Below, piece after piece: positions 7,803 to 39,029 of a DNA stretch of 64,000 nt. Each line of letters begins with the position of its first letter. Within the stretch, counting starts at the first letter, position 1. The stretch is from a phage. The stretch lies in the sequence record PZ386972.1; one strand, 5' to 3'. The notes beneath the pieces are model-generated. The model saw nothing but the letters and a program-made list of their open reading frames with translations. It made no database searches and was not told the origin of the DNA. The translations under genes and the position numbers were made by a program.

Positions 7803-8774
7803 TTAATCGTATACTCGTTCTACTATGCACGGGATTACACCACCAGCACGAATCACTCGAATCTGGCAACCGATCTCTAGATCGAGAGAGTTAATATAAT
7901 CAACGTTATTAAGAGTCGCTTTAACAATTGTAGCATCATCAATAATTACCGGTTCGAAATAACCAACTGGAGTTACTTTACCAGAAGCCCCTACCTGCCA
8001 TTCAACTTTAGTAAGAGTTGTAACCTCGCCTTCTTCATCCTCTTTAATAGCGAATGCTCCACGAGGGAATTTATTAGTCCAGCCTTCACGGAAGAATTTG
8101 TTGTTGTCATTAATACGAACAACTTTACCATCCGTCGGAATCCATTTAAAGAAGGAACGCACATTAACAACTGTTAAGAAGTTCTCATTCTCCAGCCAAA
8201 GCATATCTTTTAAATATGCTTCTGTAATACCTACAGATTCAGCAGAACACTGGATACCATATGCAACGAAGATTAAACCACCTTCTCCGATACGTTGTAC
8301 AAAATCATCACTATCTTTGAGGTTAATAGCACCAGAGGCAAAGTTACGTTTATTTTCTACTTCTTTTGTAATTAGAACTTCACCAGTGATTTGAGTAGGT
8401 ATTTTTTGGGAAATCTTTTTAGGGATATTCAGCAATCTTACGTTGCTTGTGACATCATTTCCCAGAATACCATTGCCACGAGTTAGTGCTTGAACAAATT
8501 CTCCATTAATATATAACAGAGAAATCGCACAACCATCTAACTTATCAGTTTCTACCTGACCTAATGGGTTGAATGGGGGTTTATCTCCACGATTATAATA
8601 AACTTTCTGTAAAGAATACATACGATATAGATGTGGAATATCACCCTTAGGTCCGATCTCTTCTTCTAACGGGAAGCGTTTTACCAGGCAATCATACTCC
8701 TCATCTGAGATTAAAGACATACCTTGATAATATGCTTCTTGGCAACGTTTAATAAAGTCTTTTACATTGGTCAT
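7803..8774 (-). CDS. ligA: NAD-dependent DNA ligase, N-terminal adenylation subunit
   Basis: 323 aa; adenylation KxDG motif (ETDKLDGCAI); OB-fold region; separated from the C-terminal ORF by 199 bp. Confidence 0.8.
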   Translation of the reverse strand: MTNVKDFIKRCQEAYYQGMSLISDEEYDCLVKRFPLEEEIGPKGDIPHLYRMYSLQKVYYNRGDKPPFNPLGQVETDKLDGCAISLLYINGEFVQALTRGNGILGNDVTSNVRLLNIPKKISQKIPTQITGEVLITKEVENKRNFASGAINLKDSDDFVQRIGEGGLIFVAYGIQCSAESVGITEAYLKDMLWLENENFLTVVNVRSFFKWIPTDGKVVRINDNNKFFREGWTNKFPRGAFAIKEDEEGEVTTLTKVEWQVGASGKVTPVGYFEPVIIDDATIVKATLNNVDYINSLDLEIGCQIRVIRAGGVIPCIVERVYD

Positions 8775-34040: not shown

Positions 34041-34988
34041 ATGTTTAATACTAAAAATATGAAAGAACTGACTTCTGAGCAGAAAGTAATTCGTACTATT
34101 AAACGTTGGGGTATTGGTGCTGTAGTTGGTTTAGCAGGCTTGATTCTAGCCTTTAATTCATATACTATTGTTTCTGATGGTACGGTTAAAACTCAAACAT
34201 TCCTGGGTAAAGTAGATCCTAATCCAGTATTGCCGGGTTTCCATCTTGTAAACCCGTTTGCATCTTTCGATACTTTTAGTACAAAAGATATTGCTGTAAA
34301 ATTAGATAAACTTCAGGTTCCTAGTCAGGATAAGTTTAAATCCACTGTTGACCTGACTGTTATGTTGCAATTTGATGGTTCTAAGGCACCGATTAACCGT
34401 ATTAACGCAGGTACTCAGGATCAGGCACTAGACAAGTATGTAACTGAAAAATTACTGTCTACTATTCGTGAGTTTGGTAAGTCTGTACCTAAAGCACAAG
34501 ATTTGTTTGATGCTAAAATTCAGGCTCAATTGCAAACTGCAATTCAACAGGAAGTTGAAGAGTATGCGCGCCCATATGGTTACACAGTTAAGCAGGTATT
34601 CCTTCAGGATATTACCTTGCCGCCAGTAATCATGGAACAGGTACAGAATACCAAAGTTCGTGAAGAGCAAGTTAATGCTGCGAAAGCTGAACTTGCTCGC
34701 GTTGAACAGGAAGCACAGCAAAAAGTTAAACAAGCAGAAGCAGATCGTGAAGCTCGTAACAACCAAGCTATTGCTAATGAACGTGACGCAGATGCTAAAC
34801 TGTACGCAGCTAAGAAAGAAGCTGAAGCTAACGCCGCATTGCAACGTACCATTACTCCTGAAATGATTCGTTGGAAACAACTGGAAGTTGAAATGATCCG
34901 TGCTCAGAAGTATCAAGGTGGTGTACCTCAGACTGTGGTAGGTACTGGCTACGATGGTCAAATGATCATGGATATGCGTAATAAATAA
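34041..34988 (+). CDS. SPFH/band-7 (stomatin/prohibitin-like) membrane protein
   Basis: 315 aa; N-terminal TM helix; SPFH-like core (GFHLVNPF...); C-terminal Ala/Glu/Lys-rich coiled coil. Confidence 0.55.
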   Translation: MFNTKNMKELTSEQKVIRTIKRWGIGAVVGLAGLILAFNSYTIVSDGTVKTQTFLGKVDPNPVLPGFHLVNPFASFDTFSTKDIAVKLDKLQVPSQDKFKSTVDLTVMLQFDGSKAPINRINAGTQDQALDKYVTEKLLSTIREFGKSVPKAQDLFDAKIQAQLQTAIQQEVEEYARPYGYTVKQVFLQDITLPPVIMEQVQNTKVREEQVNAAKAELARVEQEAQQKVKQAEADREARNNQAIANERDADAKLYAAKKEAEANAALQRTITPEMIRWKQLEVEMIRAQKYQGGVPQTVVGTGYDGQMIMDMRNK

Positions 34989-35084: not shown

Positions 35085-35603
35085 ATGGGTGTTGATGAAT
35101 TAACACAGCATCTTCTATCTAGAGGATTTGATGCGGATAAATATCATTGCTGGTTAAGTCCGGAAGGATGGCTAACAGTCCCGTTGTATGATTTCTCTGG
35201 GATGTTGAGGGGCTATCAAACTTATAATCCTTCTGCTCCAAAAGGTCATGGTAAGTGTCCCTTTGAAGCTAAATATTTTACCTATTCTACTACCCAGTGT
35301 GTATGGGGATTAGAAACTCTCAATGGAGATGAAAAAGTAGTATTGATCGCTGAATCTGTATTTAAGGCAGTTGCGTTACATAATGCTGGTTATCCAGCCC
35401 TAGCAATGTTGGGTTCTTCTCCAGGAAAAGCGTTATTAAAGCAACTGAAATTATTACCTTTTAAATTGGTAGCTGTCGGGGATAACGATCCTGCGGGTGA
35501 AAAATTTGCTAGAAAATTAAACGGCTTTGTTTCTCCTGTAGATGTGGATGAGATGTCTACAGAAAACTTGAAAAATTTTCTTGCTATGAAGCTAAATTTC
35601 TAA
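35085..35603 (+). CDS. TOPRIM-like domain protein
   Basis: 172 aa; VVLIAESVFKAVAL...VAVGDNDPAGEKFA resembles a TOPRIM fold. Confidence 0.4.
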   Translation: MGVDELTQHLLSRGFDADKYHCWLSPEGWLTVPLYDFSGMLRGYQTYNPSAPKGHGKCPFEAKYFTYSTTQCVWGLETLNGDEKVVLIAESVFKAVALHNAGYPALAMLGSSPGKALLKQLKLLPFKLVAVGDNDPAGEKFARKLNGFVSPVDVDEMSTENLKNFLAMKLNF

Positions 35604-36014: not shown

Positions 36015-36191
36015 ATGTCTAAGTTTCAAGAACTCAAGCAAGAGCTAGAAGAGTGTGCCTGCCCTGAGTGTAGGGGAATTGGTGAAAGTTCTGATGCAGA
36101 AGCAGGAGATACTTTTTGCAATATCTGGGTTTGCCCAAATTGCAGTGGTACAGGTATTAATCCTAACTGCGGTATTTCCCCTAGATATTGA
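36015..36191 (+). CDS. small Cys-rich zinc-ribbon-like protein (58 aa), below the ORF-track cutoff
   Basis: CPECRG...CNIWVCPNCSG Cys pairs; GGGAGA RBS. Confidence 0.35.
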   Translation: MSKFQELKQELEECACPECRGIGESSDAEAGDTFCNIWVCPNCSGTGINPNCGISPRY

Positions 36192-36554: not shown

Positions 36555-36761
36555 ATGGCTAATCCTGAAATTACCGCACAACGTTTCATGCTTAAAGGCA
36601 TGATTGCTGAGGCAGGTATGACCCAAGAGGTTGCAGACTTTCATAAGCAATTTCTTGATATTATAACTCTAGCTAAAGAGACAGGAGAAAGAGAACACGG
36701 AGCAGCAATTATGGCTATATCTCTTATTAGCCTAGACTTAGCTGAAGAATCTGGAGTTTAG
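36555..36761 (+). CDS. hypothetical protein (68 aa)
   Basis: ORF track. Confidence 0.4.
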   Translation: MANPEITAQRFMLKGMIAEAGMTQEVADFHKQFLDIITLAKETGEREHGAAIMAISLISLDLAEESGV

Positions 36762-36791
36762 CTCCTCCAAACAGAATTTTTAAAAATGTAC

Positions 36792-36821
36792 TTGCCTTTT
36801 GCTTTAAATTTCTGGTATAAT
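36792..36821 (+). promoter_or_regulatory. early promoter
   Basis: TTGCCT 36792-36797, TATAAT 36816-36821, 18-bp spacer. Confidence 0.55.
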
Positions 36822-36851
36822 AGTTATATAAATTGATGAAGGAGTTAACGA

Positions 36852-37127
36852 ATGCAAAATCGTGTTATAGCAACTGGTATTGAAAGTGCAATCTGTAAAT
36901 CCTGGGAAGGCTGGGAAGGTGAGATTGAATGGCTTTATTTCTACGATGTAGAACTTCTGCCGGAAGTTAAAGCTAAATGTGTTGAAGCTGGCATGGCTCC
37001 AGATGCAAAAGCTGATATTGATATTTCAATGTCTGAACTTAAAGGTCGTGTAATTACTGTTAGTGATGAGGGCGAAGAAGTTTTCGAACTTCCATTCTCC
37101 TTAACTGTCGCTCCTAAGTTCGACTAA
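36852..37127 (+). CDS. hypothetical protein (91 aa)
   Basis: ORF track; GGAG RBS. Confidence 0.45.
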   Translation: MQNRVIATGIESAICKSWEGWEGEIEWLYFYDVELLPEVKAKCVEAGMAPDAKADIDISMSELKGRVITVSDEGEEVFELPFSLTVAPKFD

Positions 37128-37132
37128 CTAAT

Positions 37133-37173
37133 ACAGCACTGAGCAAGTTCTTTAAAATTTGACTTGCTCAGTG
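37133..37173 (+). terminator. 12-bp-stem hairpin whose 3' arm overlaps the next promoter's -35
   Basis: GCACTGAGCAAG ... CTTGCTCAGTGC inverted repeat. Confidence 0.4.
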
Positions 37174-37192
37174 CCATAAAACTTGATATAAT
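37164..37192 (+). promoter_or_regulatory. early promoter
   Basis: TTGCTC 37164-37169, TATAAT 37187-37192. Confidence 0.5.
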
Positions 37193-37255
37193 AGTTATCT
37201 AATTTGGAAACATATCTAAAAGTGTTTAAACTAGTATTTGAATACTTTTAAATAT

Positions 37256-37343
37256 GGGCGTTTATTCCGTAGATGGTAGCGGAGGGGATTGTAAATCCCT
37301 GGTCATTGCGACTCGAGTGGTTCGACTCCATTAACGCCCACCA
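37256..37343 (+). tRNA. tRNA-Tyr (anticodon GUA), long variable arm
   Basis: Acceptor GGGCGTT/AACGCCC; anticodon stem GGGGA/TCCCT with loop TTGTAAA; variable stem-loop; CCA. Confidence 0.65.
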
Positions 37344-37361
37344 AATTTAAAGGTAAAATAT

Positions 37362-37844
37362 ATGTACACTGATAGAATTGTTCAAGAAGCTGCAAACAGA
37401 GGTCTTATTGATCTGGGATCACCAGTTGATATAACTAAAGAGCTAATAACAGAGAGCCTTACGTTTGGCACAGCTAACTTTGGCCGAGATAGTAACCGTC
37501 GGTATAGCTTGAAACTATCAGCATTATCTTTTATTAAGTACAATAAGAGTATTGGAGAAAAATCAAGTTGTGGTTTTATCTACGCGATAACTAATCCAGC
37601 TTGGACTGATTATGTAAAAATTGGCATGTCTTCTGACCCAAAAACAAGATTAGCCAATTACCAGACATATTCTCCACTACGTGACTATAAGTTAATACAT
37701 TGGTCATTTTGGTTTAATGCTAGAGAAGCAGAGAAAATGCTTCATAATAGCTTTCCAAAAAGAATTAATGAATGGGTAGTTTTGGACAGAAGTGTAGATG
37801 AAACACTTGCTGATTTTAATAAACTATCTAATAAACAATTTTAA
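37362..37844 (+). CDS. GIY-YIG-like (T5orf172-type) domain protein within the tRNA cluster
   Basis: 160 aa; GFIYAITNPAWTDYVKIGMSSDPKTRLANYQT resembles the GIY-YIG/T5orf172 core. Confidence 0.5.
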   Translation: MYTDRIVQEAANRGLIDLGSPVDITKELITESLTFGTANFGRDSNRRYSLKLSALSFIKYNKSIGEKSSCGFIYAITNPAWTDYVKIGMSSDPKTRLANYQTYSPLRDYKLIHWSFWFNAREAEKMLHNSFPKRINEWVVLDRSVDETLADFNKLSNKQF

Positions 37845-37845
37845 T

Positions 37846-37920
37846 GCACCTATCATCTATCGGTTAGGACATCAGGTTTTCAACCTGAGAAGCTTGGTTC
37901 GATTCCGTGTGGGTGTACCA
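37846..37920 (+). tRNA. tRNA-Glu (anticodon UUC)
   Basis: Acceptor GCACCTA/TGGGTGT; anticodon stem TCAGG/CCTGA with loop TTTTCAA; CCA. Confidence 0.55.
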
Positions 37921-37928
37921 AATTCTGC

Positions 37929-38005
37929 ATTCCTAGAGTGTTACTGGACAGCATGTCGGTCTCCAAAACCGTACGGTCTAGGTTCGAGTCCTAGTAGGTT
38001 TGCCA
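37929..38005 (+). tRNA. tRNA candidate, anticodon uncertain (possibly CCA/Trp)
   Basis: T-arm CTAGGTTCGAGTCCTAG and CCA end are clear; acceptor pairing needs two U-U mismatches. Confidence 0.35.
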
Positions 38006-38011
38006 AAATTT

Positions 38012-38086
38012 GCACCTTTAGCTGAGATGGATTAGCGCTTGCCTGAAGAGCTTGAGAGGTTCGTTCGATACGAACAGGGTGCACCA
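38012..38086 (+). tRNA. tRNA candidate, anticodon uncertain (possibly GAA/Phe)
   Basis: Acceptor GCACCTT/AGGGTGC; D-arm GCTG/TAGC; T-arm GTTCGTTCGATACGAAC; CCA; loop CTGAAGA with weak stem. Confidence 0.4.
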
Positions 38087-38088
38087 AA

Positions 38089-38376
38089 TTGAGGGAGCTG
38101 CTGATGCATCCTGAAAACTTCTTTATTTACTGCGCGGATAAGTTGCTGAAACGTAGAATTAACAAAGTCTATCATTATCGTGCTAGTCAACAGCCTTATG
38201 TATACGCTTTTGACGGTGATCACATCCCATTAGAACAACTATCTTGTGATTACATGATATTGAAGAACTTTGACGAGACAAAGATCTCAAGCGTTCATAA
38301 TCGACAGAATCCCTTAACGTGGAAATATAAGAAGAAAAAGAAAGGCATCAAATTCTTAAAAAATGTAGTTGCTTAG
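38089..38376 (+). CDS. hypothetical protein (95 aa)
   Basis: ORF track. Confidence 0.4.
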   Translation: MRELLMHPENFFIYCADKLLKRRINKVYHYRASQQPYVYAFDGDHIPLEQLSCDYMILKNFDETKISSVHNRQNPLTWKYKKKKKGIKFLKNVVA

Positions 38377-38397
38377 TTTCCAAAAGTTCTGTATAAT
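38369..38397 (+). promoter_or_regulatory. early promoter
   Basis: TTGCTT 38369-38374, TATAAT 38392-38397. Confidence 0.55.
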
Positions 38398-38425
38398 AAT
38401 TACATAAATTGAACTGGAGAAGCAA

Positions 38426-38713
38426 ATGAAACGATTAGTTAGATTTAAGTGTTGTGGTTCTGAACATATTTTCACACATCTTCGTGAATTTAAAATGTGT
38501 GATTGTGGTAAATCAGGCTATGACTCAGGAGATGGGTTCTACACCCGTACTCTAGGGAACTTCAATGATCTAGAATTTGAAGATCTCGAAAAACAAGAAA
38601 AAGAATTATGTATCTGTTATGAATGTGGTGATCAAGATTACTACTCTAAAACAGGTAAGAAAGTGTGTAGCAATTGTGGTTCCGATCATGTAGCTACACA
38701 TTATGAAAGATAA
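38426..38713 (+). CDS. Cys-rich zinc-finger-like protein (95 aa)
   Basis: Multiple CxxC pairs (CDCGKSG, CYECGD, CSNCGSDH). Confidence 0.45.
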   Translation: MKRLVRFKCCGSEHIFTHLREFKMCDCGKSGYDSGDGFYTRTLGNFNDLEFEDLEKQEKELCICYECGDQDYYSKTGKKVCSNCGSDHVATHYER

Positions 38714-38718
38714 TAAAC

Positions 38719-38794
38719 CGACCGTTGGCTGAATGGCTTAGGCGAAGGATTGCAAATCCTTTTTATGTGAGTTCAAATCTCATGCGGTCGTCCA
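38719..38794 (+). tRNA. tRNA-Cys (anticodon GCA)
   Basis: Acceptor CGACCGT/GCGGTCG; anticodon stem AAGGA/TCCTT with loop TTGCAAA; T-arm GTGAGTTCAAATCTCAT; CCA. Confidence 0.6.
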
Positions 38795-38796
38795 AT

Positions 38797-38936
38797 TTGC
38801 TGAAAGAATTGTTAAATCAATTCAGGCACGCGTAGGAACACTGTCTCCGTAATTGAAAGATGAGACACGGTTTGGAGAGGTATGCCGCTACACGCTACGG
38901 TGCTAACTCCGTCTAGGTGAAAATCCTAGTCAGCAA
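38797..38936 (+). ncRNA. structured RNA (~140 nt) with terminal pairing and T-arm-like hairpin, not a canonical tRNA
   Basis: 5' TTGCTGA pairs with 3' TCAGCAA; hairpins GTCTC...GAGAC and CTAGGTGAAAATCCTAG. Confidence 0.3.
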
Positions 38937-38946
38937 TATAAATTTA

Positions 38947-39029
38947 GGGTCGTTAGCCAAGCGGTTTGGCGGTGGACTGTTAATCCATGTCGAAAGACAA
39001 CGTAGGTTCGAATCCTACACGGCCCGCCA
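38947..39029 (+). tRNA. tRNA with GUU anticodon (Asn-like) and an atypical 13-nt variable stem-loop
   Basis: Acceptor GGGTCGT/ACGGCCC; anticodon stem GTGGA/TCCAT with loop CTGTTAA; variable GTCGAAAGACAAC; CCA. Confidence 0.45.

What the first reader, a model, noticed from the sequence alone, without database searches (positions are those of the whole stretch)
37362..37844. GIY-YIG/T5orf172-type protein embedded in the tRNA cluster
The only sizeable ORF among the tRNAs carries a GIY-YIG-like core (GFIYAITN...YVKIGMSSDPKTRLANYQT). GIY-YIG homing endonucleases are known to sit in phage tRNA regions, so this is a candidate mobile or exclusion nuclease.
Basis: partly seen in the sequence, partly recalled or inferred. 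Interest (0 to 1): 0.4.

Follow-up and report, generated by a model that had tools for sequence, protein, structure and literature searches.

The report
Mobile nuclease gene between phage tRNAs
A 160-residue nuclease-type gene (T5orf172 branch of the GIY-YIG superfamily) sits as a precise 494-bp optional insert between the tRNA-Tyr and tRNA-Glu genes of a T5-like phage; it is most likely a selfish "homing" nuclease, a known and fairly ordinary kind of element.

Summary
The ORF is real (37362-37844, +, 160 aa) and carries the quoted motif. It passes Pfam T5orf172 (36.3 bits against a cut-off of 20) and MUG113. It does not hit the canonical GIY-YIG model PF01541. A confident AlphaFold model matches GIY-YIG nucleases best (Slx1, I-TevI, UvrC).

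The window is a T5-like phage. Phage T5 has an empty tRNA-Tyr|tRNA-Glu site. T5.069, the 172-aa gene that gave the Pfam family its name, is a ~42% identical paralogue at the tRNA-Cys|tRNA-Asn site.

The gene is a precise 494-bp presence/absence polymorphism. Of about 450-490 T5-like records, about 42 carry it, always after one tRNA-Tyr variant. Another 79 records with that variant stop matching exactly at the insertion point. A second T5orf172 lineage fills the same site in about 27 records.

dN/dS is about 0.06, while dS is about 0.9 inside flanks that are 96-100% identical. This indicates a functional gene exchanged as a cassette.

Relatives that share its N-terminal helical module lie in tRNA arrays in T5-like, T4-like and Vibrio phages, ending at the next tRNA's 5' end.

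This is a new member of a known kind. Nuclease and homing activity remain untested. Interest is low to moderate.

The parts
37145..37219 (+). Promoter region homologous to the annotated early promoter P14a of phage T5. It lies upstream of tRNA-Tyr and is the likely driver of the tRNA-Tyr / ORF / tRNA-Glu-Trp-Phe transcript.
   Evidence: The alignment to the T5 record's 'promoter P14a' feature is nearly identical over this stretch. No intrinsic terminator is predicted in 36700-38800. Function is inferred from the T5 annotation and was not tested.
37256..37343 (+). tRNA-Tyr (GTA), 'variant A'. This is the upstream neighbour always found with this nuclease lineage.
   Evidence: ARAGORN. Variant A occurs in 121 phage records. 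In 42 of them the ORF follows. In 79 the match ends at query position 92-95, which is window position ~37350. Five tRNA-Tyr variants (48-88% identical) exist among 21 T5-like loci.
37351..37844 (+). The 494-bp optional insert: an 11-nt leader that completes the Shine-Dalgarno sequence, plus the ORF with its stop codon. It is flanked by an imperfect 10-bp direct repeat, CCAAATTTAA (37341-37350) and ACAATTTTAA (37835-37844).
   Evidence: Alignments to empty sites in IrisVonRoten, DaisyDussoix, T5 (A1) and TrudiGerster (A7). The empty site reads CACCAAATTTAA|TGCACC.
37350..37353 (+). Shine-Dalgarno-like AAGG, 8 nt before the ATG.
   Evidence: Read from the sequence. An equivalent TAAGG is present before the Klebsiella orthologue and the SSP1-type paralogue.
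37362..37844 (+). ORF of 160 aa: a T5orf172-family (GIY-YIG superfamily) putative endonuclease.
37362..37565 (+). N-terminal three-helix module (residues 1-68; helices at 2-12, 26-34 and 43-63). It is the presumed nucleic-acid recognition part. K51 and L52 are invariant.
37569..37841 (+). T5orf172 nuclease domain (residues 70-160). Candidate catalytic residues are Y74 (37581-37583), K86 (37617-37619), R96 (37647-37649), E124 (37731-37733) and E137 (37770-37772).
37846..37920 (+). tRNA-Glu (TTC), 'type D'. Its 5' end lies 1-2 nt after the ORF's stop codon.
   Evidence: ARAGORN. This tRNA-Glu type is only 48% identical to the tRNA-Glu that follows the orthologue in I14 and GreteKellenberger. At 96.6% identity it is otherwise found only in ORF-less phages (TrudiGerster, EH7). 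No record has this ORF|tRNA-Glu-D junction.

Best explanation
The ORF is a free-standing, homing-type endonuclease gene of the T5orf172 branch of the GIY-YIG superfamily. It resides in the tRNA operon of a T5-like phage.

Shown:
- It is a 494-bp optional insert placed exactly in the 6-8-bp spacer between tRNA-Tyr and tRNA-Glu.
- It is under strong purifying selection.
- It has a predicted GIY-YIG fold with the Tyr / Lys / Arg / Glu / Glu set conserved across the subfamily.
- It is sporadic among close relatives.
- It is much more diverged than its flanks.
- It occurs next to different downstream tRNAs in different phages.

Inferred:
- It is transcribed with the tRNAs from the P14a-like early promoter. 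tRNA processing releases its mRNA, and RNase P cleavage 1-2 nt after the stop codon may limit expression, as proposed for T4 segB.
- In a mixed infection, the N-terminal helical module binds, and the C-terminal domain cuts, the ORF-less version of the tRNA-Tyr/tRNA-Glu region of a related phage.
- Recombinational repair from the ORF-bearing genome then copies in the gene together with the adjacent tRNA variant (homing, or localised marker exclusion).
- The gene's own genome is protected because the insert splits the junction, or because its linked tRNA variant is not cut.
For: Family and fold:
- Pfam T5orf172 and MUG113 hits above threshold.
- AlphaFold pLDDT 89, pTM 0.81.
- Catalytic-type residues are invariant in 62 distant relatives.
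- A T5orf172 protein (ICP1 Odn) is a proven DNA endonuclease that is killed by mutating the equivalent Glu (PMC8263062).

Mobility:
- Empty sites in T5, IrisVonRoten, DaisyDussoix and TrudiGerster.
- All 10 T5-like IMG/VR contigs in the tRNA-Tyr pattern scan are empty, as are 16 of the 22 loci anchored on tRNA-Trp. The two sets overlap.
- About 42 of roughly 450-490 T5-like records are filled.
- 79 records break exactly at the insertion point.
- Against I14 the flanks are 96-100% identical, but the ORF is 85% and the adjacent tRNA-Glu 48%, with dS 0.87-1.0 and dN/dS 0.06.
- The same lineage abuts tRNA-Glu type B (database phages), type D (window; a junction seen in no record) and tRNA-Asn (Klebsiella phages).
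- A second T5orf172 lineage (~42% identical) occupies the same site in SSP1, NBEco002 and about 27 records.
- Paralogues occupy other inter-tRNA sites (T5.069 at Cys|Asn; TrudiRoth before tRNA-Lys).
- The T5.069-type copy is linked to a tRNA-Asn only 51% identical to that of ORF-less phages.

Precedent:
- T4 SegB is a GIY-YIG homing endonuclease in a tRNA cluster. It cuts inside tRNA genes and spreads itself together with neighbouring tRNAs (PMC2330249).
- T5orf172 homing endonuclease genes are reported as abundant in T5-like phages and as markers of recombination boundaries (PMC10448857).
Against: - No nuclease, binding or homing experiment exists for this protein or for any small T5-like T5orf172 protein that I could find.
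- The canonical GIY-YIG model does not hit, and the second motif tyrosine is a lysine (K86).
- There is no recognisable DNA-binding domain. 87% of T5orf172 homing endonucleases in PMC10448857 carry zinc-finger domains. This protein has none, and the N-terminal module gives only weak fold matches.
- 160 aa is small for a site-specific enzyme.
- 79 records keep the same tRNA-Tyr variant without the gene. An efficient homing enzyme might have been expected to invade them, unless they are resistant or have lost the gene.
- Strong, long-term purifying selection would also fit a gene kept for the phage's benefit.
- The tRNA 'variants' may be paralogous genes that are differentially retained: TrudiGerster has both tRNA-Glu types in tandem. 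tRNA diversity may also be driven by host tRNA-targeting defences rather than by the nuclease (PMC10644984).
Confidence: 0.7

Rival explanations
1. It is a domesticated T5orf172 protein kept for the phage's benefit. It would be a nuclease or DNA-binding regulator aimed at something other than its own empty site: a competing phage, a satellite, a plasmid or host DNA. The precedents are ICP1 Odn and the satellite protein CapR. The tRNA-cluster position would be only a convenient expression site.
For: Odn and CapR show that T5orf172 proteins have been co-opted (PMC8263062, PMC10448857). dN/dS of 0.06 over a dS near 1 indicates long-term functional constraint. The PADLOC candidate defence family PDC-S57 shares the domain at E=1e-8. 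79 records with the same tRNA-Tyr variant are not invaded.
Against: The precise indel, the two unrelated lineages competing for the same 6-8-bp spacer, the paralogues at other inter-tRNA spacers, and the sharp identity drop confined to the gene and its adjacent tRNA are the signature of self-propagating elements, not of a conserved accessory function. The gene is absent from most T5-like phages, including T5.
Confidence: 0.17
2. It acts on RNA rather than DNA. It would be a tRNA-precursor processing, tRNA repair or tRNA quality-control factor that works on the transcripts of the array in which it is embedded.
For: Members that share the N-terminal module lie inside tRNA arrays in three unrelated phage groups. 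Their stop codon falls within -27 to +8 nt of the next tRNA's 5' end. The N-terminal module weakly resembles RNA- and DNA-binding helical bundles such as uL11 and eS17.
Against: The characterised GIY-YIG and T5orf172 enzymes I know of are DNA nucleases (from my own knowledge). The flanking tRNA identities differ from phage to phage (Tyr, Cys, Lys, Asp, Glu and others). The gene is dispensable in most relatives that have the same tRNAs. HNH homing endonuclease genes in T5 show the same ORF/tRNA overlap, so the arrangement is a property of mobile genes in tRNA arrays, not of a tRNA enzyme.
Confidence: 0.06
3. It is a decaying remnant, or a chance ORF with no current function.
For: Selfish nuclease genes commonly degenerate after fixation. 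The Pfam alignment covers only positions 1-73 of the 101 in the T5orf172 model.
Against: dN/dS is 0.06. The ORF is intact in about 42 records. The catalytic-type residues, including the C-terminal E137-W138, are invariant in 62 distant relatives. The whole chain folds confidently.
Confidence: 0.03

Closest known systems
T5.069 (the 172-aa 'ORF172' of phage T5, namesake of Pfam PF10544 T5orf172) and its orthologues in BF23 and DaisyDussoix
   Same: It has the same two-part architecture (N-terminal helical region plus C-terminal T5orf172 domain) and is ~42% identical. It belongs to the same phage family and the same tRNA operon and strand. Its 3' end overlaps the next tRNA. It shows presence/absence polymorphism and is linked to a divergent adjacent tRNA.
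   Different: It occupies a different insertion site (tRNA-Cys|tRNA-Asn, not tRNA-Tyr|tRNA-Glu). The window lacks a copy at that site, which is a 152-bp spacer. T5.069 matches the full Pfam model (positions 1-100 of 101), whereas the window protein matches only positions 1-73. Neither protein is characterised experimentally.
T4 SegB (free-standing GIY-YIG homing endonuclease in the T4 tRNA cluster; PMC2330249)
   Same: It is a free-standing nuclease gene inside a phage tRNA array. Its stop codon lies at the 5' processing site of the downstream tRNA. It is absent from close relatives. It spreads together with neighbouring tRNA genes. It belongs to the GIY-YIG superfamily.
   Different: SegB has a canonical GIY-YIG domain at the N-terminus and its DNA-binding part at the C-terminus, which is the opposite order. 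It is 221 aa long. Its cleavage sites (the tRNA T-psi-C motif) and its homing are demonstrated experimentally. There is no detectable sequence similarity beyond the core motif.
ICP1 T5orf172 homing endonucleases and Odn/Gp88 (PMC10448857, PMC8263062)
   Same: The T5orf172 domain is C-terminal to a DNA-recognition module. The catalytic Arg and Glu are conserved. These genes sit at boundaries of genetic exchange. T5-like phages are named as a lineage enriched in such genes.
   Different: Most of those proteins carry CapR, DUF723 or DUF4397 zinc-finger domains or RepA_N domains and are larger. The window protein has a cysteine-free three-helix module. Those papers do not discuss an association with tRNA arrays.
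HNH endonucleases of the T5 tRNA region (hegA/hegC/hegD; F-TflI, II, IV; cited in PMC2330249 and PMC10644984)
   Same: They occupy the same genomic niche and are optional. Their ORFs overlap the downstream tRNA.
   Different: The catalytic fold is unrelated (His-Me finger). The window carries none of them in its tRNA region.

Membership tests
Pfam PF10544 T5orf172 (clan GIY-YIG) | Score at or above the family's gathering threshold | tested here: met
   36.3 bits against a cut-off of 20, E=8e-9, residues 71-134. PF13455 MUG113 scores 36.1 against 22.3.
Pfam PF10544 T5orf172 (clan GIY-YIG) | Conserved core motifs: G-x-x-Y ... K-I-G ... R ... E ... E-W | tested here: met
   G71, Y74, K86, G88, R96, E124, E137 and W138 are invariant or nearly so in A2 (15 sequences) and A6 (62 sequences at 23-43% identity).
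GIY-YIG superfamily (fold level) | A three-stranded sheet flanked by helices that superposes on solved GIY-YIG nucleases | tested here: met
Canonical GIY-YIG domain (Pfam PF01541) | HMM match | tested here: not met
   No hit even at E<=10 for the window protein. The paralogue T5.069 reaches only E=0.11, 13.3 bits against a cut-off of 22.6.
Canonical GIY-YIG domain (Pfam PF01541) | Second motif tyrosine (the Y of 'YIG') | tested here: not met
   hhalign pairs I-TevI Y17 with the invariant K86, so the motif reads V-K-I-G (low-probability alignment). The first Tyr (Y74), the Gly (G88) and the Arg (R96) do align.
Homing endonuclease gene (functional class) | Sporadic presence at a fixed site among otherwise collinear close relatives, with precise boundaries | tested here: met
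Homing endonuclease gene (functional class) | Site-specific cleavage of the gene-less allele | not testable with these tools
   This needs a nuclease assay on the tRNA-Tyr|tRNA-Glu region of ORF-less phages.
Homing endonuclease gene (functional class) | Super-Mendelian inheritance with co-conversion of flanks | tested here: inconclusive
   The support is indirect only: the identity drop is confined to the gene and the adjacent tRNA; the gene is exclusively linked to tRNA-Tyr variant A (42 of 42 records); and it has three different downstream partners. Crosses are required.
T5orf172 homing endonucleases with zinc-finger DNA-binding domains (PMC10448857) | A CapR, DUF723 or DUF4397 zinc-finger module next to the T5orf172 domain | tested here: not met
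   No such Pfam hit. There is a single cysteine in the whole protein. The N-terminal part is a three-helix module.
Seg-type GIY-YIG endonucleases of T4 (SegA-G) | N-terminal GIY-YIG domain followed by a C-terminal DNA-binding region | tested here: not met
   The domain order is reversed: the nuclease domain occupies residues 70-160.

The most novel reading that the evidence does not exclude
The window gene may belong to a distinct, widespread subfamily of compact (about 160-190 aa) T5orf172 nucleases. The subfamily would be defined by a cysteine-free N-terminal three-helix module and specialised for phage tRNA arrays in Demerecviridae, T4-like Straboviridae and Vibrio siphophages. Members would recognise tRNA-gene DNA and move as 'nuclease + tRNA' cassettes, driving replacement of phage tRNA variants. 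tRNA-Tyr would be one such variant; the T5 copy is reported to counter a tRNA-targeting retron. Selfish homing would then spread defence-evading tRNA variants between phages.
Probability: 0.2. Interest if true: 0.6.

Novelty: new member of a known kind. Interest (0 to 1): 0.3.

Why it matters
On the conservative reading, the result fixes an annotation. A 'hypothetical protein' found in many T5-like genomes is a T5orf172-type mobile nuclease, paralogous to the gene that named the Pfam family. The tRNA-Tyr|tRNA-Glu spacer is a contested landing site used by two lineages. This explains a local mosaic breakpoint in the tRNA region of therapeutic and model T5-like phages.

The nuclease may also carry its adjacent tRNA variant along with it. 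That would link selfish DNA to the turnover of phage tRNA genes, which are now viewed as counter-defence tools. The compact N-terminal module would then be a new DNA-recognition unit worth characterising.

Tried and rejected
- **Canonical GIY-YIG HMM (PF01541):** no hit. NCBIfam gave no hit. A sequence search of PDB with the family profile gave no hit.
- **IMG/VR scan with the tRNA-Tyr T-arm pattern**: it mostly returned unrelated phages and prophages that share the motif. Only 10 T5-like contigs came back, all with empty sites.
- **The search for related loci with the 62-sequence alignment:** I repeated it with A2.
- **Consensus promoter scan**: it did not flag the promoter. Homology to T5's annotated P14a was used instead.
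- **tRNA-Glu variants as alleles of one gene:** I first treated them this way. TrudiGerster carries both types in tandem, so they are better seen as paralogous types that are differentially retained. This weakens any 'target-site resistance allele' argument for tRNA-Glu.
- **A dedicated defence system:** considered and rejected. The PADLOC hit is only domain-level similarity to a candidate family.

Full report
**Observation.** The ORF exists exactly as described: 37362-37844 on the + strand, ATG start, 160 aa. It contains GFIYAITNPAWTDYVKIGMSSDPKTRLANYQT at residues 71-102. ARAGORN finds 22 tRNA genes between 33932 and 44330, all on the + strand. The ORF lies between tRNA-Tyr (37256-37343) and tRNA-Glu (37846-37920), with an AAGG ribosome-binding site 8 nt before the ATG. 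The statement that it is the only sizeable ORF among the tRNAs is not accurate. A 315-aa SPFH/Band-7 ORF (34041-34988) and a 172-aa Toprim ORF (35085-35603) also lie within the cluster.

**Family.** Pfam gives T5orf172 (PF10544; E=8e-9; 36.3 bits against a cut-off of 20; residues 71-134) and MUG113 (PF13455; E=1e-8). The canonical GIY-YIG model PF01541 does not hit. PHROG 5032, of unknown function, matches end to end at E=1e-50. NCBIfam has nothing. PADLOC shows only domain-level similarity to the candidate family PDC-S57.

A weak hhalign alignment to I-TevI pairs Y74 with Y6, K86 with Y17, G88 with G19 and R96 with R27. In 62 relatives of only 23-43% identity, Y74, K86, G88, R96, P105, E124, E137 and W138 are invariant. 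E137-W138 corresponds to the 'EW' glutamate. In the T5orf172 nuclease Odn of phage ICP1 the equivalent residue is E180, and mutating it abolishes DNA cleavage (PMC8263062). The protein is therefore a T5orf172-type member of the GIY-YIG superfamily with an apparently intact active site. It is not a canonical GIY-YIG domain.

**Genomic identity.** The window is a T5-like phage (Demerecviridae). Long stretches match Tequintavirus and Epseptimavirus genomes at 93-96%, and no database record is near-identical. A 99%-identical protein occurs on one 109-kb assembled contig.

In phage T5 itself, tRNA-Tyr and tRNA-Glu are 6 bp apart, so the site is empty. T5.069 is a 172-aa ORF between tRNA-Cys and tRNA-Asn, and it scores on PF10544 over the full model. 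It is evidently the 'ORF172' that named the family. The window gene is a ~42% identical paralogue of it at a different inter-tRNA site. The window has no copy at the Cys|Asn site, and it has none of T5's HNH genes hegA, hegC or hegD.

**Presence/absence.** Alignment with the empty sites of IrisVonRoten, DaisyDussoix, T5 and TrudiGerster shows a precise 494-bp insert at 37351-37844. The empty site reads CACCAAATTTAA|TGCACC. The insert ends in ACAATTTTAA, so it is bounded by an imperfect 10-bp direct repeat.

- Of 454 phage records that match the 1.6-kb neighbourhood, 39 span the ORF.
- tblastn finds 41 records with 80-90% identical protein and none above 90%.
- A query made of tRNA-Tyr plus the first 84 nt of the ORF finds 121 records. 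42 continue into the ORF. 79 stop at query position 92-95, which is the insertion point.
- Among 22 T5-like loci anchored on the invariant tRNA-Trp, 16 have a 6-8-bp Tyr-Glu spacer. Three have this gene. Three (SSP1, NBEco002, S124) have a 549-bp insert that encodes a different T5orf172 lineage of 181 aa, ~42% identical. That lineage is present at >=95% identity in 27 records.

Two lineages therefore compete for one spacer.

**Evidence of exchange.**
- Against vB_EcoS_I14 (ORF-bearing), the flanking genes and tRNAs are 96-100% identical. The ORF is only 85% identical and the adjacent tRNA-Glu 48%.
- dS between the ORFs is 0.87-1.0 and dN/dS is 0.06. This is an old, constrained divergence embedded in young flanks.
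- The lineage abuts tRNA-Glu type B in database phages and type D in the window. No record has the window's junction, and type D otherwise occurs in ORF-less phages.
- In Klebsiella T5-like phages, the 55% orthologue follows tRNA-Tyr but overlaps tRNA-Asn.
- The window-type gene is always preceded by tRNA-Tyr variant A (42 of 42 records). The SSP1-type gene follows variant E (3 of 3 loci). Variants B, C and D are always empty (14 loci).
- At the Cys|Asn site, T5 and DaisyDussoix carry T5.069 and have a tRNA-Asn only 51% identical to that of phages lacking it. tRNA-Cys is identical in both groups.

Caveats apply. TrudiGerster carries both tRNA-Glu types in tandem, so some 'variants' are paralogous genes that are differentially kept. 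The records are also phylogenetically non-independent.

**Expression (inferred).** The stretch 37145-37219 is nearly identical to T5's annotated early promoter P14a. No terminator is predicted through 38800. tRNA-Tyr, the ORF and tRNA-Glu/Trp/Phe are therefore probably one transcript. The stop codon lies 1-2 nt before the tRNA-Glu 5' end. In the 163-aa alleles of I14 and GreteKellenberger the ORF runs 10 nt into the tRNA. The SegB paper proposes that RNase P cleavage at such a junction limits expression of segB and of the T5 tRNA-region endonucleases (PMC2330249).

**Wider pattern.**
- The profile finds 8270 cluster representatives (E<=1e-3). Of these, 53 reach E<=1e-30, and more than 100 are full-length matches of 160-190 aa.
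- Homologues in T4-like Edwardsiella phage PEi26 (tRNA-Lys|tRNA-Asn), T4-like Aeromonas phage 44RR2.8t (tRNA-Tyr|tRNA-Lys) and Vibrio phage Hades (tRNA-Asp|tRNA-Pro) are all wedged between tRNAs. Each ends at or inside the next tRNA.
- In 27 loci analysed, every hit that includes most of the N-terminal module (query start at residue 14 or earlier) lies in a tRNA array. In about 17 loci the stop codon lies -27 to +8 nt from a tRNA 5' end. Five domain-only relatives have no tRNAs nearby.
- The main survey of T5orf172 homing endonucleases notes their abundance in T5-like phages but does not discuss tRNA arrays. It finds zinc-finger DNA-binding domains in 87% of them (PMC10448857). This protein has none.

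**Interpretation.** The best-supported reading (about 0.7) is a free-standing homing-type endonuclease gene of the T5orf172 family. It would work like T4 SegB: cut the gene-less tRNA region of a co-infecting relative, then be copied in with the neighbouring tRNA by repair.

The rivals are:
- a domesticated nuclease or regulator aimed at another target (about 0.17);
- an RNA or tRNA-directed function (about 0.06);
- a dead remnant (about 0.03, contradicted by dN/dS).

Homologues are already labelled 'putative homing endonuclease' (BASEL phages) or 'GIY-YIG nuclease family protein'. This is therefore a new member of a known kind.

The less ordinary points are the two-lineage contest for one spacer, the compact zinc-free architecture, and the consistent residence in tRNA arrays across phage families. 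These justify a modest rather than minimal interest score. All mechanistic steps (cleavage, target, biased inheritance) remain untested.

Noticed in passing
window 37256-37343 and 37846-37920; loci L001-L003, L019, L036, L047, L065, L078, L087, L089-L102: tRNA-Tyr (5 variants, 48-88% identical) and tRNA-Glu (4 types, 44-80% identical) are hypervariable among T5-like phages. The neighbouring tRNA-Trp, tRNA-Phe and tRNA-Cys are 97-100% identical in the same phages. The anticodon loops of the tRNA-Tyr variants differ (UUGUAAA, CUGUAAA, CUGUAGA). T5 tRNA-Tyr is reported to rescue retron Eco7 toxicity (PMC10644984), so host defence pressure could drive this diversity as well as, or instead of, nuclease pressure.
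   Followed up: partly
L091, L093 (Shigella phage SSP1), L097 (NBEco002): the ~549-bp insert between tRNA-Tyr and tRNA-Glu: A second T5orf172 lineage (181 aa, ~42% identical) occupies the very same tRNA-Tyr|tRNA-Glu spacer. It is linked to a different tRNA-Tyr variant and is present in about 27 phage records at >=95% identity.
   Followed up: partly
L131 (TrudiGerster) 261-419: This phage has two tRNA-Glu(TTC) genes of the two divergent types in tandem. The 'alleles' seen singly in other phages are therefore paralogous genes that are differentially retained.
   Followed up: partly
L078 (Escherichia phage chee24), the tRNA-Glu upstream of tRNA-Trp: The tRNA-Glu carries a 19-bp internal tandem duplication (CAATCTGAGAATCGGAGTT twice) in an ORF-less genome that has tRNA-Tyr variant A. 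It may be an inactivated tRNA or a repair scar.
   Followed up: no
L006 (T5) 7953-8525; L003 (DaisyDussoix) 1492-2064; window 38795-39029: T5.069-type copies at the Cys|Asn site come with a tRNA-Asn only 51% identical to the tRNA-Asn of phages lacking the gene, the window included. The same T5-type tRNA-Asn follows the window-type orthologue in Klebsiella phages (L004). This suggests nuclease + tRNA cassettes.
   Followed up: partly
window 38426-38713 (+): A 95-aa cysteine-rich (zinc-ribbon-like) ORF ends 5 nt before tRNA-Cys. It is absent from IrisVonRoten and DaisyDussoix (272 of 288 positions gapped) and only partly present in I14. It is another optional ORF that abuts a tRNA. Pfam gives only a sub-threshold DUF7695 hit.
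   Followed up: partly
window 36015-36191 (+): A 58-aa CxxC...CxxC zinc-ribbon-like ORF is absent from I14 but present in IrisVonRoten. It is a further small indel polymorphism in the tRNA region.
   Followed up: no
window 35085-35603 (+) and 34041-34988 (+): A 172-aa Toprim-domain ORF is the homologue of T5.076, which is annotated as 'DNA primase'. By coincidence it is also 172 aa, but it is not the T5orf172 namesake. A 315-aa SPFH/Band-7 protein is the homologue of T5.080, annotated as 'lipoprotein'. Both lie between tRNA-Arg and tRNA-Ser.
   Followed up: partly
L103 (Edwardsiella phage PEi26) 1306-1833; L104 (Aeromonas phage 44RR2.8t) 1297-1851; L105 (Vibrio phage Hades) 1462-1950; L118, L119: Homologues with the same N-terminal module sit between tRNAs in T4-like and Vibrio phages and in metagenomic viral contigs. 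Each ends within a few nucleotides of, or inside, the next tRNA. I did not find this tRNA-array association described in the T5orf172 literature I read.
   Followed up: partly
L087 (PP892525.1, Escherichia phage vB_EcoS_I14): The record's taxonomy line reads Ounavirinae; Felixounavirus. Its tRNA region is collinear with, and 96-100% identical to, T5-like phages, so the taxonomy label is probably wrong.
   Followed up: no
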